A DNA stretch of 64,000 nt from the human T2T-CHM13v2.0 reference genome, Homo sapiens. Under the pieces are notes generated by a model, which saw only the letters and a list, made by a program, of their open reading frames with translations, was not told where the DNA came from and did not search any database. The stretch is taken from the NCBI RefSeq assembly GCF_009914755.1, contig NC_060936.1; one strand, 5' to 3'. Position 1 is the stretch's first letter; every line of letters starts with the position of its first letter. Shown one piece after another: positions 13,990-20,695 of the stretch. A program made the translations under genes and the position numbers.

Positions 13990-14800
13990 ATTTTTTAGAG
14001 GCAGGGTCTCTGTCTATTGCCCAGATTGGAGTACAGTGTTATTGCAGCCTTCAACTCCTAGACTAAAGTGACTCTCCCACCTCAGCCTCTGGAGTAGCTG
14101 GGACTACAGGTGTGTGCCACCTTGCCTGGCTAATTTTTAAATTATTTTTATTTTTGTAGAGACAGGGTCTTGCTATGTTGGCCAGGCTGGTCTTGAACTC
14201 CTGCCCTCAAGTGATCCTCCCACTCTGGCCTCCCAAAGTATTGGGATTACAGGCATGAGCCATGGCACCTGGCCAGGAAAAATATTCTTTATTTAAAAAA
14301 ATAAAATCGTGTTAAGATGCCAACAGTACCAAGAGTTGTTACCTAAAACATGCTAGTTAAGATTTCTCTGAAGTTTAAAAAAAGACTTAAAAATAAATAT
14401 TTTGTCTGCTGGCTATTTAATCTACAACTTCTACATCACTTTTTCTGATTTGTGGGGGGAAAAAGAAGACTGAGGTAGTGTCATTTTGATGGCAAGGGTT
14501 TTTTTGTGTGTGTATTTTTCTGAAATGAGGTTTCACTCTTGCCACCCAGGCTGGAGTACAGTGGCATGAACACAGTTCACTGCAGCCTCAACCTCCTGGG
14601 CTCAAGCGATCCTCCTGCCTCAGCCTCTTGTGGGACCACAGGCCTGGCTATTACCCTGTCTGGCTAATTTTTTGATTTTTTTGTGGAGACAGAGGTCTCA
14701 CGTTGTTGCCCAGGCTGATTTTGAAGTCTTGGGCTCAAGCAGCCCTCTTGCCTCGGCCTCCCAAAGTGCTGGGATTACAGGCGTGAGCCACTGTGCCCAG
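13990..14800 (-). mobile_element. Two AluJ-like elements (~13990-14275, ~14515-14800) flanking pseudogene exon F
   Basis: Reverse Alu consensus, diverged. Confidence 0.82.
14288..14449 (-). pseudogene. GTSF2-like terminal exon F (DQKK*, stop at 14436-14438) with candidate poly(A) signals
   Basis: Pyrimidine tract cttctttttccccccacaa|AT CAG AAA AAG TGA; acceptor reads CAA; ATTAAA at 14416-14421 and AATAAA at 14288-14293 on the minus strand. Confidence 0.55.
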
Positions 14801-15068
14801 TTGCAAGTGTTTTTGTGGAAGATCTAAGCTTGATGTGTATTAGTAGCATTTCAAATAGATCCCTAGACAGCCCTTTCTCCTAAGACTAATTTAAAGCCAT
14901 CAGGACTTTCCCTGCATTCTGTTGTGGGTGAAATAGGAAACTGAAATAGAAAATATGGTTTAATTTTTTTAAGAAGAAAAGTTTGTCTAAGAATCTTTAA
15001 AGGCTTAGGACACATTAGTGATATTAGTTAAAACTATGACATCAGTTTTTTAAAAACAATTATTTTAT

Positions 15069-15140
15069 CTTTTCTCCAGGACTTGTTTTTAGGATGTATA
15101 TCATCCATAGCCTCTTTTTTTCCTTAGGTCTCTTGAGTCA
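15069..15140 (-). pseudogene. GTSF2-like exon E
   Basis: cacctacag|T GAC TCA AGA GAC CTA AGG A7 GAG GCT ATG GAT ... TCC TGG AGA AAA G|ataaaa; phase 2 fits exon D; frameshift in the A-run; donor reads AT. Confidence 0.68.
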
Positions 15141-15673
15141 CTGTAGGTGATGACTATAAGAGGAAAGTTAGTTGGAATCCAGTACTGGAGAATTAATCTA
15201 GATAATCAATTATAGGAGATTAAAGTTACTCTATCAAATGTAATTGATATTACTAAATGTCAGAGTAGAAACCATTGGTTTTTTTTTTTGCTTACTTCTG
15301 TTTTGTATAATTATTTTGCCCTTTCCCATCTTCCTGTGATTGTGGCAGGTAACTCCATGAATGACTCCTATAACTCTTGGATGTGCCCTTCAAGTTGTTT
15401 AGCTGGCAGTCCTTACCTCCTTCATGTACAATATGCTTATTCTTTTCCCTTCACAGTTTTGGAAATTGGTCTTTTATTCTTTGAAAATCTTACACAGAAT
15501 CAAGAATGTTGTGTATGCAAGTCCTTGATGGGATACAGTCTGAAGCAGAGCCCTTGAGAAGGAATGGAAGTACTCAGGGCCCACCAATACAGATCTTTTA
15601 CATTCATAATTGAAGCTTAGGCATCTGCCATGCCTAGGACCTGATGGCTGTCTCACTTTAAGAACCCAGGTTT

Positions 15674-15905
15674 CGGCCAGGCACAGTAGCTCATGCCTGT
15701 AATCCAAGCACTTTGGGAGGCTGAAGTGGGCGGATAACCTAAGGTCAGGAGTTCAAGACCAGCCTGGCCACCATGGTGAAACCCCTTCTCTACTAAAAAT
15801 ACAAAAATTAACTGGGCTGAGGCAGCAGAATCGCTTGAACCCAGGAGGCGGAGGTTGCAGTGAGCCGACATCGCGCCATTGCACTCTGTCTCAAAAAAAA
15901 AAAAG
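15674..15905 (+). mobile_element. Alu with internal right-arm deletions
   Basis: Left arm intact; right arm missing two segments. Confidence 0.85.
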
Positions 15906-15965
15906 AATCCAGGTTTAAAGGTATTCTGCTCTCTCTTCCAACAGTGAAAAGATGGTTTATCTTAA

Positions 15966-16030
15966 CTTTCACAAACCAGCATTTTTGGGGCAAAAGTCTT
16001 AAGAAAAAAATGGAGTATGATGCATATTAC
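15966..16030 (-). pseudogene. GTSF2-like exon D
   Basis: cttccttctttctag|GT AAT ATG CAT CAT ACT CCA T7 CTT AAG ACT TTT GCC CCA AAA ATG CTG GTT TGT GAA AG|ttaaga; LKTFAPKMLVCE resembles GTSF1L LKTFFPQKVVCE; donor reads TT. Confidence 0.8.
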
Positions 16031-17977: not shown

Positions 17978-18059
17978 TCCTTGAGCCTTTTTATTGGGAC
18001 CACATGACTAGCATTATTTTTTCAGTTAGCCATCATTTTAACTATCTTTGGATTTTTCT

Positions 18060-19898
18060 TTTTTTTTTTTTTTTATTGATCATTCTTGGGTGTTTCTCAC
18101 AGAGGGGGATTTGGCAGGGTCATAGGACAATAGTGGAGGGAAGGTCAGCAGATAAACAAGTGAACAAAGGTCTCTGGTTTTCCTAGGCAGAGGACCCTGC
18201 GGCCTTCCGCAGTGTTTGTGTCCCTGGGTACTTGAGATTAGGGAGTGGTGATGACTCTTAACGAGCATGCTGCCTTCAAGCATCTGTTTAACAAAGCACA
18301 TCTTGCACTGCCCTTAATCCATTTAACCCTGAGTGGACACAGCACATGTTTCAGAGAGCACGGTGTTGGGGGTAAGGTCACAGATCAACAGGATGCCAAG
18401 GCAGAAGAATTTTTCTTAGTACAGAACAAAATGAAAAGTCTCCCATGTCTACTTCTTTCTATACAGACATGGCAACCATCCGATTTCTCAATCTTTTCCC
18501 CACCTTTTCCCCCTTTCTATTCCACAAAACGGCCATTGTCATCCTGGCCCGTTCTCAATGAGCTGTTGGGTACACCTCCCAGATGGGGTGGTGGCCGGGC
18601 AGAGGGGCTCCTCACTTGCCAGTAGGGGCGGCCGGGCAGAGGCGCCCCTCACCTCCCGGACGGGGCGGCTGGCCGGGCGGGGGGCTGACCCCCCCCACCT
18701 CCCTCTCGGACAGGGCGGCTGGCCGGGCGGGGCGCTGACCCCCCCACCTCCCTCCCGGATGGGGCGGCTGGCCGGGCAGGGGGCTGAGCCCCCCACCTCC
18801 CTCCCGGACGGGGCGGCTGGCCGCGCAGACGGGCTCCTCACTTCCCAGTAGGGGCGGCCGGGCAGAGGCGCCCCTCACCTCCCGGACGGGGCGGCTGGCC
18901 GGGCCGGGGGCTGACCCCCCCACCTCCCTCCCGGACGGGGCGGCTGGCCTGGCGGGGGTTGACCCCCACCTCCCTCCCGGACGGGTGGCTGCCGGGCGGA
19001 GACGCTCCTCACTTCCCAACGGGGTGGCTGCGGGGCGGAGGGACTCCTCACTTCTCAGACGGGGCGGCTGCCGGGCAGAGGGGCCCCTCACTTCTCAGAC
19101 GGGGCGGTTGCCAGGCAGAAGGTCTCCTCACTTCTCAGATGGGGCGGCCGGGCAGAGACGCTCCTCACCTCCCTGACGGGGTCGCGGCCGGGCAGAGGCG
19201 CTCCTCACATCCCAGACGGGGCGGTGGGGCAGAGGCGCTGCCCACATCTCAGACGATGGGCGGCCGGGCAGAGACGCTCCTCACTTCCTAGATGGGATGG
19301 CGGCCGGGCAGAGAGGCTCCTCACTTTCCAGACTGGGCAGCCAGGCAGAGGGGCTCCTCACATCCCAGACGATGGGCGGCCAGGCAGAGACGCTCCTCAC
19401 TTCCCAGACGGGGTGGCGGCCCGGCAGAGGCTGCAATCTCAGCACTTTGGGAGGCCAAGGCAGGCGGCTGGGAGGTGGAGGTTGTAGCTAGCCGAGATCA
19501 CGCCACTGCACTCCAGCCTGGGCACCATTGAGCACTGAGTGAACGAGACTCGGTCTGCAATCCCGGCACCTCGAGAGGCCGAGGCTGGCGGATCACTCGC
19601 GGTTAGGAGCTGGAGACCAGCCCGGCCAACACAGCGAAACCCCGTCTCCACCAAAAAAATACGAAAACCAGTCAGGCGTGGCGGCGCGCGCCCGCAATTG
19701 CAGGCACTCGGCAGGCTGAGGCAGGAGAATCAGGCAGGGAGGTTGCAGTGAGCCGAGATGGCAGCAGTACAGTCCAGCTTCCGCTCGGCATCAGAGGGAG
19801 ACCGTGGAAAGAGAGGGAGAGGGAGACCGTGGGGAGAGGGAGAGGGAGAGGGAGACCGTGGGGAGAGGGAGAGGGAGAGGGAGAGGGAGAGGGAGAGA
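18060..19898 (-). mobile_element. Full-length SVA retrotransposon (probably SVA_C/D type)
   Basis: Minus strand order: (CCCTCT)n hexamer ~19898-19795, antisense Alu-like region, GC-rich VNTR ~19420-18580, SINE-R, AATAAA (18072-18077), poly(A); TSD atctttggatttttct (18044-18059) / atctttgatttttct (19899-19913). Confidence 0.96.
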
Positions 19899-20048
19899 AT
19901 CTTTGATTTTTCTAGAAGGAAAAAGTTCTAGGTTTTCCCTGTATTCCATCCTCCACCCCTTTCTGGAAATGCTGAAGACAGATACCATGTTCCAACATTA
20001 AGAACTGCCAGGTGCTACATATGGTCAGAAGCTTGTTTATTTTCATTT

Positions 20049-20512
20049 TTATTTATTTATTTATTTATTTATTTATTTATTTATTTGAGATGGAGTCTCG
20101 CTCTGTCACCCAGGCTGGAGAGCAGTGGCGCAATCTCGGCTCACTGCAAGCTCTGCCTCCCGGGTTCACGCCATTCTCCTGCCTCAGCCTCCCCAGCAGC
20201 TGGGACTACAGGCGTCCGCCACCACGCCCGGGTAATTTTTTGTATTTTTTTTTTTTTTAGTAGAGACAAGGTTTCACCATGTTAGCCAGGATGGTCTCGA
20301 TCTCCTGACCTCGTGATCCGCCCACCTCGGCCTCCCAAAGTGCTGGAATTACAGGCATGAGCCACAGCACCTGGCCTATTTTTATTTTTTATTTTTAGAG
20401 ATGAGGTCTTGCCATGTTGTCCAGGCTGGTCTTAAACTCCTGGTCTCAAGCAATCCTCCCACCTTGGCCTTCCAAGGTGCTTGGATTACAGTGTGACCCA
20501 CTGCACACAGCC
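20049..20512 (-). mobile_element. AluY with (TTTA)n tail (~20049-20376) plus adjacent Alu monomer (~20378-20512)
   Basis: AluY-type sequence; lies in the intron between pseudogene exons A and B. Confidence 0.88.
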
Positions 20513-20600
20513 TAATTTTTTTTTTTAAAAACGTTAACTTTTTATTTCTGAGGTTATTTTCTCCCTCTAGTGGCTTACAGTTCTTATCAGGAAAACTTAC

Positions 20601-20695
20601 TCTTCTGCATGACAGGTGGTACTGTAATCTGCTGGCTGGCCTCCTGTGGTTTGGGTCATAAGGACACATTTCTAAGGCTTCTGGCTCCATGAGGA
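20601..20695 (-). pseudogene. GTSF2-like exon A: ATG (20690) and CHHC zinc finger 1
   Basis: catttag|TCCTC ATG GAG CCA ... TGC AGA AGA|gtaagt; 30 open codons [30 protein letters not shown]; both splice sites intact. Confidence 0.92.

What the first reader, a model, noticed from the sequence alone, without database searches (positions are those of the whole stretch)
14436..20695. Hidden full-length fossil of a third GTSF gene (probable GTSF2 unitary pseudogene) between GTSF1 and NCKAP1L
Seen: six minus-strand exon remnants in order, with matching intron phases, reconstruct a ~150-aa protein with two CHHC (U11-48K-like) zinc fingers. The ORF track shows only the first exon. Known: GTSF1 is a PIWI cofactor needed for piRNA-guided transposon silencing; mouse has an intron-containing paralogue, Gtsf2, next to Gtsf1, plus an intronless Gtsf1l (recalled, not searched). 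Inference: this is the lost primate orthologue of Gtsf2, i.e. a lineage-specific loss in the piRNA machinery. I cannot tell whether current annotation already lists it.
Basis: partly seen in the sequence, partly recalled or inferred. Interest (0 to 1): 0.92.

Follow-up and report, generated by a model that had tools for sequence, protein, structure and literature searches.

The report
Dead GTSF2 gene relic in humans
Between GTSF1 and NCKAP1L the human genome still carries the broken, five-exon remains of GTSF2, a helper gene of the transposon-silencing piRNA pathway; its loss in primates is already published, so this adds annotation detail and no surprise.

Summary
The relic is real. On the minus strand five coding exons lie in order: A 20690-20601, B 19911-17628, C 17466-17369, D 16030-15966, E 15140-15034. 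Exon B is split by an SVA-like element and an Alu. Read through with X at each break, they give about 160 codons with two CHHC zinc fingers. Exon A passes Pfam zf-U11-48K (27.9 bits, cut-off 21.1). Exons C and D beat 0 of 300 shuffles. Introns 1 and 2 match GTSF1's in place and phase. The zinc-finger part is 38% identical to human GTSF1, 74% to intronless GTSF1L and 82-85% to an unnamed third mammalian group. That group alone matches exons C-E well. I count at least ten disabling lesions. The details do not: there are five exons, not six, and nothing below 15034 is supported. Arif et al. 2022 already state that Gtsf2 is lost in primates, so the loss is known. I found no printed description of the relic, and the RefSeq table lists no gene there. 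One side inference: GTSF1L looks like a retrocopy of the GTSF2 lineage that outlived its parent.

The parts
20601..20690 (-). Exon A: ATG (20690-20688) and first CHHC finger, 30 open codons. Donor GTAAGT at 20600, phase 0. One codon is missing between the second His and the last Cys (site 20613/20612).
   Evidence: PF05253 27.9 bits against cut-off 21.1; gap in the alignment to GTSF1 and U11-48K.
19899..19911 (-). First 13 bases of exon B, behind the acceptor ...ttccttctAG (AG at 19913-19912). Also the 5' copy of the target-site duplication of the SVA-like insert.
18059..19898 (-). SVA-like composite retrotransposon (about 1.84 kb) inserted into exon B. Hexamer repeat 19897-19811, GC-rich VNTR 19431-18593, AATAAA and A-tail 18074-18059. 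Flanked by a 13/14-base duplication (19911-19899 and 18057-18044).
   Evidence: (GC 0.76). The name SVA is recalled from its architecture and comes from no classifier.
17978..18057 (-). Exon B, main part 1: linker and start of the second CHHC finger. The first zinc-binding Cys codon reads TGA (18024-18022).
   Evidence: E 2e-6 to GTSF1L; 79-82% identical to P0010, P0011, P0017; PF05253 13.6 bits, below cut-off.
17675..17977 (-). Alu inserted into exon B inside the second finger. Target-site duplication GGCTCAAGGA at 17987-17978 and 17674-17665.
   Evidence: 6.0% non-CpG divergence from the majority consensus of 31 window Alus, with 11 of 20 CpGs kept.
17628..17664 (-). Exon B, part 2: end of the second finger. 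A 4-base deletion (17656/17655) shifts the frame before the last Cys, giving TAG 17636-17634 in the present frame. Donor GTAAGT, phase 1.
17369..17466 (-). Exon C (tail, with the conserved ..PD.WN.. motif). Acceptor tttatttcAG, donor GTGAAC, phase 1 at both ends. TAA at 17419-17417 and a 1-base deletion near 17400.
   Evidence: P0014 86% and 92% identical in two pieces, E 1.1e-9; 27/31.
15966..16030 (-). Exon D. Acceptor ttctttctAG. A 2-base deletion in the T-run 16010-16004. The donor position reads TT (15965-15964) where GT is expected, phase 2.
   Evidence: 13/17 with P0092, 14/21 with P0019 and P0013.
15034..15140 (-). Exon E, the last coding exon. Acceptor cacctacAG. An A-run expansion at 15121-15115 shifts the frame. 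TAG at 15036-15034.
   Evidence: Four relatives hit it; P0013, P0019 and P0092 are 67-75% identical over 12-18 residues.

Best explanation
This is the unitary pseudogene of GTSF2. GTSF2 is the intron-bearing third member of the GTSF (UPF0224) family of PIWI cofactors. The relic sits in its ancestral place next to GTSF1, on the same strand, and has decayed in the primate lineage. It encodes nothing now.

The frame is broken by at least ten lesions:
- a lost codon in finger 1
- TGA at the first Cys of finger 2
- an SVA-like insertion in exon B
- an Alu insertion in exon B
- a 4-base deletion before the last Cys of finger 2
- a nonsense codon in exon C
- a 1-base deletion in exon C
- a 2-base deletion in exon D
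- a GT-to-TT donor change in exon D
- a frame-shifting A-run expansion in exon E

Shown: the anatomy, the family, the kinship to the third mammalian group and the lesions.

Inferred:
- The third group is GTSF2.
- The small zinc-finger lesions came before the two retroelement insertions. The relative P0017 shares the finger-1 deletion and has Arg where human has TGA, but lacks the Alu and the 4-base deletion.
- The loss was tolerated because GTSF1L does the same job. Both potentiate MIWI but not MILI, and single and double knockout mice are fertile (Arif 2022; Takemoto 2016).
For: - Family: exon A passes PF05253 and matches mouse GTSF1, PDB 6x46, at E 3.3e-9.
- Genome-wide rank: after GTSF1L itself, exon A is the best match to GTSF1L in the whole genome (E 5.5e-7, 74% identical). 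Exon B also matches, with one TGA inside.
- Gene structure: four introns in phases 0, 1, 1, 2. All acceptors are AG and three of four donors are GT. GTSF1 has phase-0 and phase-1 introns at the corresponding places.
- Zinc-finger identity: GTSF1 26/68, GTSF1L 50/68, P0010 58/68, P0011 57/68, P0017 56/68.
- Tail identity: exon C 27/31 with P0014 against 12/31 with GTSF1L. Exon D 13/17 with P0092 and 14/21 with P0019 against 9/21. Exon E 12/26 against 3/19.
- Tree (24 rows, 75 columns): the GTSF1L-like group is a clade without the relic (96/98). The relic pairs with P0017 (95/89). The relic, the GTSF2-like rows and the GTSF1L-like rows are split from the GTSF1-like rows at 100/99.
- Chance controls.
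- No intact third copy: the Pfam scan of the genome gave 5 matches over cut-off, all in GTSF1L, GTSF1 or one chr6 locus that I take for SNRNP48 by recall.
[quoted passage not shown] 7).
Against:
- In the tree the five GTSF2-like rows form an unresolved comb, not a clade. They were one clade in 11% of bootstrap trees.
- The AU test rejects neither placement. Holding the relic with the GTSF1L-like rows gives p 0.125. Holding it with the GTSF2-like rows gives p 0.367.
- No mouse sequence or mouse genome could be compared, so orthology rests on position plus published synteny.
- Several relatives are clearly imperfect gene models: P0014, P0017 and P0092 read into introns or skip exons.
- Exon E support is modest (best E 0.004-0.007, 4 of 150 relatives).
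- My first 3' end for exon D was wrong and was corrected only.
Confidence: 0.9

Rival explanations
1. A decayed gene of the GTSF1L/GTSF2 lineage, but not the one-to-one orthologue of mouse Gtsf2. For example, an independent tandem duplicate that arose and died in the primate stem.
For: The AU test does not separate the placements. No named mouse sequence was compared. The GTSF2-like rows are not resolved as a clade.
Against: Exons C-E match the third mammalian group far better than GTSF1L. The position beside GTSF1 fits the published synteny of the Gtsf genes. Introns are shared with GTSF1. No other such copy was found in the human genome.
Confidence: 0.05
2. The locus is still used. It might be a testis transcript (non-coding RNA) from the old promoter, or a short peptide carrying only the first finger from the intact 30-codon exon A.
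For: Exon A keeps its ATG, an open frame and a consensus donor. Nothing here tests transcription.
Against: Arif 2022 reports no GTSF2 expression in human or macaque testis (legend read). Finger 1 has lost a residue inside the CHHC spacing. Thirty open codons are not unusual by chance. The RefSeq table given with the finding lists no transcript.
Confidence: 0.04
3. A recent tandem duplicate pseudogene of GTSF1, or a processed pseudogene of GTSF1L.
For: It lies 16 kb from GTSF1 on the same strand. It is 74% identical to GTSF1L in the fingers.
Against: It is only 38% identical to GTSF1 in the fingers. It has four introns with AG acceptors at GTSF1-like positions, which a processed copy would lack.
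Confidence: 0.01

Closest known systems
Mouse Gtsf2 (BC048502), the intron-bearing paralogue of Gtsf1 (Takemoto et al. 2016, PMC4773171; Arif et al. 2022, PMC9385479)
   Same: Two N-terminal CHHC fingers and a divergent tail. A multi-exon gene: the mouse targeting design names introns 1 and 4. Published as syntenic with the other Gtsf genes. Finger identity to GTSF1L is about 78% in mouse; here the third mammalian group is 76-77% identical to human GTSF1L.
   Different: The human copy is dead, with at least ten lesions including two retroelement insertions. I could not align a named mouse sequence.
Human GTSF1L (chr20, intronless coding region, 148 aa; L001)
   Same: Finger part 74% identical. 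The coding region is collinear with relic exons A to E and crosses all four intron sites without a break.
   Different: It is intact and intronless on another chromosome. Its tail is only 16-43% identical to relic exons C-E. It forms its own clade without the relic.
Human GTSF1 (neighbour, L006/L007)
   Same: Same strand and same family. Introns after finger 1 (phase 0) and after finger 2 (phase 1) lie at matching places.
   Different: Only 38% identical in the fingers. GTSF1 has an extra small 5' coding exon. Its tail cannot be aligned.
Unitary pseudogenes of primates in general
   Same: A single-copy ancestral gene decayed in place, with a working orthologue reported in rodents.
   Different: Here a probable retrocopy of the same lineage (GTSF1L) survives, so the function may not be lost.

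Membership tests
GTSF / UPF0224 family (two tandem CHHC zf-U11-48K fingers) | First CHHC finger recognisable by the family profile | tested here: met
   PF05253 27.9 bits against cut-off 21.1. PDB 6x46 E 3.3e-9. The spacing between the second His and the Cys is one residue short.
GTSF / UPF0224 family (two tandem CHHC zf-U11-48K fingers) | Second CHHC finger directly downstream | tested here: met
   It is recognisable only as a ruin. PF05253 gives 13.6 bits, E 0.067, below the cut-off. It is 79-82% identical to relatives over 28-29 residues. Cys1 reads TGA, an Alu lies inside, and a 4-base deletion precedes Cys4.
GTSF2 orthologue | Lies between GTSF1 and NCKAP1L in the orientation of GTSF1 | tested here: met
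   Relic at 15034-20690, minus strand. GTSF1 ends at 4179 (minus) and NCKAP1L starts at 28313 (table given with the finding). The mouse arrangement was not testable here; published as syntenic.
GTSF2 orthologue | Sequence closer to GTSF2 than to GTSF1L or GTSF1 | tested here: inconclusive
   Closest to an unnamed third mammalian group in the fingers and the tail. The relic is excluded from the GTSF1L clade (96/98), but AU tests are not decisive (p 0.125 and 0.367). No named GTSF2 sequence was at hand.
GTSF2 orthologue | Intron positions shared with mouse Gtsf2 | not testable with these tools
   No mouse genome or annotated Gtsf2 is held. The two comparable introns are shared with human GTSF1.
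Unitary pseudogene | Disabling lesions in an otherwise complete exon set | tested here: met
   At least ten lesions, mapped.
Unitary pseudogene | No intact copy elsewhere in the same genome | tested here: met
   The genome-wide Pfam scan gave 5 matches over cut-off, all in GTSF1L, GTSF1 or one chr6 locus. The GTSF1L protein scan gave 8 matches and no further intact gene. Both tools score only the best candidates.
Processed pseudogene | No introns; collinear with mRNA | tested here: not met
   Four introns of 0.16 to 1.3 kb (intron 1 is 0.69 kb), with AG acceptors and three GT donors.
SVA retrotransposon (the insert in exon B) | Hexamer repeat, VNTR, polyadenylation signal with A-tail, target-site duplication | tested here: met
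   The Alu-like and SINE-R parts were not examined. The family name is recalled.

The most novel reading that the evidence does not exclude
GTSF1L is a retrocopy of the GTSF2 lineage. In primates the intron-bearing parent died while the retrocopy lived on, so the retrogene replaced its parent within the piRNA machinery.

The decay seems to have begun with small lesions in the zinc ligands. One relative, P0017, shares the finger-1 deletion and carries Arg where human has TGA. Another, P0019, has lost two ligands of finger 2. GTSF2 may therefore be eroding in more than one mammalian lineage.
Probability: 0.6. Interest if true: 0.4.

Novelty: already known. Interest (0 to 1): 0.25.

Why it matters
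The relic gives physical proof, exon by exon, of a gene loss that was published from synteny and missing expression. It fills an empty stretch of the RefSeq T2T annotation. It also supplies dated markers (a shared deletion, an Alu, an SVA-like element) with which the loss could be placed on the primate tree.

It suggests that human GTSF1L is the only survivor of the GTSF1L/GTSF2 pair. That bears on how mouse results for these MIWI-specific cofactors are carried over to humans. It does not change what is known about the piRNA pathway.

Tried and rejected
I sent the 120 minus-strand open stretches instead.
- A 30-residue query was too short for the search for homologous proteins. The longer open frame with a region gave only 3 human-like read-through ORFs, P0001-P0003, and no mammalian relatives.
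- My first reading took exon D to run to a stop beside the Alu at 15905, from a gapless but weak likeness to the end of GTSF1L. Relatives showed a fifth exon instead. The exon D figure (74/110) and the overall 72.3% therefore include intron and should not be used. Exons A 75/90, B 88/117 and C 61/95 stand.
- The chain score was badly designed: too many tiny hits were chained, and 2 of 200 shuffles reached it. The pair score replaced it.
- The supplement of Arif 2022 that is held as text has no GTSF2 sequence.
- The 'Orphan retrogenes' paper does not mention GTSF1L in its main text. Its supplements were not read.
- One search was a poorly aimed literature search.
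Full report
**1. Is it there?**

Yes. The window is human chr12 (T2T). The relic lies on the minus strand.

Exon A:
- ATG at 20690-20688 opens 30 codons that end at a consensus donor (GTAAGT at 20600).
- I scanned 120 minus-strand open stretches of 20 residues or more in 14001-21000. This one alone passes Pfam zf-U11-48K, at 27.9 bits against a cut-off of 21.1. 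One further stretch (17953-18021) gives a sub-threshold 13.6 bits.
- Against solved structures exon A matches mouse GTSF1 (6x46, E 3.3e-9) and U11-48K. In each alignment there is a one-residue gap before the last Cys.

**2. The reference used**

The whole human genome could be searched.
- A Pfam scan found five matches over cut-off: two on chr20, two just upstream of the window on chr12, and one on chr6.
- The chr20 locus holds one intronless 148-codon frame, human GTSF1L.
- With it as query, tblastn on the 64-kb window gave collinear minus-strand hits at 20690-20601 (E 5.5e-12, 77% identical), 18063-17977 (E 2e-6), 17396-17370 (E 0.52) and 16009-15950 (E 0.051). Two short pieces at 17678-17629 lie in two frames.
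- blastn gave the same chain.
- Genome-wide, relic exon A is the best match to GTSF1L after GTSF1L itself.

**3. Chance controls**

The query was GTSF1L residues 72-148. The target was the 5.6 kb downstream of exon B.
- The best collinear pair scores 46.9 bits.
- 0 of 300 block shuffles reached it (mean 30.8, maximum 39.6).
- 18 other stretches of the window, both strands, gave at most 35.4.
- 4 of 300 shuffles had a single hit of 21.9 bits or more, and 0 of 300 had one of 25.0 or more.
- An earlier chain statistic was badly designed and is discarded.

**4. Relatives**

A search of 1.84 billion representative proteins with GTSF1L gave 638 hits at E<=0.001. The best 150 were kept.
- tblastn of all 150 against 14000-21000 showed several that fit the relic better than GTSF1L does.
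- These hits also revealed a fifth exon at about 15140-15034.
- This overturned my first reading, in which exon D ran on to an Alu at 15905.

**5. Anatomy**

| Exon | Coordinates | Borders and phase |
|---|---|---|
| A | 20690-20601 | donor GTAAGT, phase 0 |
| B | 19911-17628 | acceptor ...ttccttctAG, donor GTAAGT, phase 1 |
| C | 17466-17369 | phase 1 at both ends |
| D | 16030-15966 | phase 2 at its end |
| E | 15140-15034 | ends at TAG 15036-15034 |

Exon B is interrupted twice.
- After 13 bases comes a 1.84-kb SVA-like element. It has a hexamer repeat at 19897-19811, a VNTR at 19431-18593, AATAAA and an A-tail. It is flanked by a 13/14-base duplication.
- The exon resumes at 18057-17978 and is then cut by an Alu (17977-17675, with a 10-base duplication).
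- It ends with 17664-17628.

Read through with X at each break, the five exons give 161 positions before the stop.

**6. Lesions**

- One codon is lost inside finger 1.
- The first Cys of finger 2 reads TGA (18024-18022).
- The SVA-like insertion in exon B.
- The Alu insertion in exon B.
- A 4-base deletion at 17656/17655, before the last Cys of finger 2.
- TAA at 17419-17417 in exon C.
- A 1-base deletion near 17400 in exon C.
- A 2-base deletion in the T-run 16010-16004 in exon D.
- TT in place of the GT donor at 15965-15964.
- An A-run expansion at 15121-15115 in exon E.

All but the first disrupt the frame or splicing. The first changes the CHHC spacing.

**7. Kinship**

GTSF1's exons (L006) show an intron after the first finger in phase 0. 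A second lies after the second finger in phase 1, within two codons of the relic's. The relic is therefore an intron-bearing paralogue and not a processed copy.

Identity in the finger part:

| Compared with | Identical |
|---|---|
| human GTSF1 | 26/68 (38%) |
| human GTSF1L | 50/68 (74%) |
| P0010 | 58/68 |
| P0011 | 57/68 |
| P0017 | 56/68 |

Identity in the tail:

| Exon | Third group | GTSF1L |
|---|---|---|
| C | 27/31 (P0014), 22/31 (P0019) | 12/31 |
| D | 13/17 (P0092), 14/21 (P0019, P0013) | 9/21 |
| E | 12/26 | 3/19 |

A careful tree of 24 rows and 75 columns gave these results:
- It separates the GTSF1-like rows from all others at 100/99.
- It makes the GTSF1L-like rows a clade that excludes the relic (96/98).
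- It pairs the relic with P0017 (95/89).
- The third group is an unresolved comb.
- AU tests reject neither forced placement (p 0.125 and 0.367).

The 130-row tree is only a quick tree but has the same shape.

I call the third group GTSF2-like on two grounds. It is 76-77% identical to GTSF1L in the fingers, and Takemoto 2016 gives about 78% for mouse GTSF2 against GTSF1L (passage read). The relic also sits where GTSF2 is expected.

**8. History (inference)**

- P0017 shares the finger-1 deletion and several relic-specific residues, and it has Arg where human has TGA. It lacks the Alu and the 4-base deletion. The zinc-finger damage therefore seems older than the insertions.
- The exon-B Alu is 6.0% diverged at non-CpG sites from the majority consensus of 31 near-full-length Alus in the window, and keeps 11 of 20 CpGs. 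It falls in the younger class: 23 copies at 4.7-8.5%, against 8 at 11.5-16.6%.
- That SVA elements are confined to apes, and any calibration of Alu ages, is recalled and not tested here.

**9. What is known**

- Arif et al. 2022 (PMC9385479; passages and the legend of Extended Data Fig. 7 read, the figure itself not held) state that the Gtsf genes are syntenic, that Gtsf2 is lost in primates, and that humans and macaques do not express it.
- Takemoto 2016 and the Ipsaro and Joshua-Tor review (passages read) do not describe a human relic.
- Searches for Gtsf2 with 'pseudogene' (6 papers, 5 listed, none by title about a human relic), BC048502 (1 paper), and GTSF2 with 'primates' and 'lost' (2 papers, both Arif) found nothing further. 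GTSF2P, GTSF1L2 and GTSF1P had 0 occurrences in the 15 of 19 papers listed.
- The RefSeq table supplied with the finding has no gene between 4179 and 28313.
- GENCODE and HGNC could not be consulted.
- The loss is therefore known. The exon-level description may be new, but it is incremental.

**10. Side inference**

The GTSF1L coding region is intronless and collinear with relic exons A-E across all four intron sites. The intron-bearing structure is shared with GTSF1 and hence older. GTSF1L is therefore most simply a retrocopy of the GTSF2 lineage, and in primates it has outlived its parent. No paper in the library holds both 'GTSF1L' and 'retrogene'. The supplements of retrogene surveys were not read and may list it.

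**11. Verdict**

This is a real but ordinary unitary pseudogene of a gene whose loss in primates is already published. The exon count and the low end of the span were not.

Noticed in passing
L008 385..678 (+), human chr2:229698785-229699078: A 97-codon open frame with two GTSF1L-like islands in one frame and roughly the right spacing. The genome-wide E is only 0.114. It may be a very old processed GTSF1L fragment, or chance.
   Followed up: partly
Proteins P0017 and P0019: Relatives of the relic also lack zinc ligands in finger 2. P0017 has Arg at Cys1 and at the second His. P0019 has Arg at the second His and Tyr at Cys4. GTSF2-like genes may be decaying in more than one lineage, or these may be gene models built on pseudogenes.
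   Followed up: no
window 16126-16100 (-), inside relic intron 3: Nine residues of relative P0092 are identical to a frame of this human intron stretch. This is either a gene-model artefact or a cryptic exon in a close relative.
   Followed up: no
window 13291-13575 (+): This Alu keeps 18 of 20 consensus CpGs at 4.7% non-CpG divergence, by far the freshest of the 31 in the window.
   Followed up: no
Proteins P0001-P0003: The metagenome-derived protein set holds read-through ORFs of relic exon A plus its intron. They are 95-100% identical to the window, so they are host DNA called as microbial protein.
   Followed up: no
window 15305-15505 and 16998-17047: The RefSeq 'silencer' and 'enhancer' elements in the supplied table fall inside relic introns 4 and 3. 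No link to the relic was examined.
   Followed up: no
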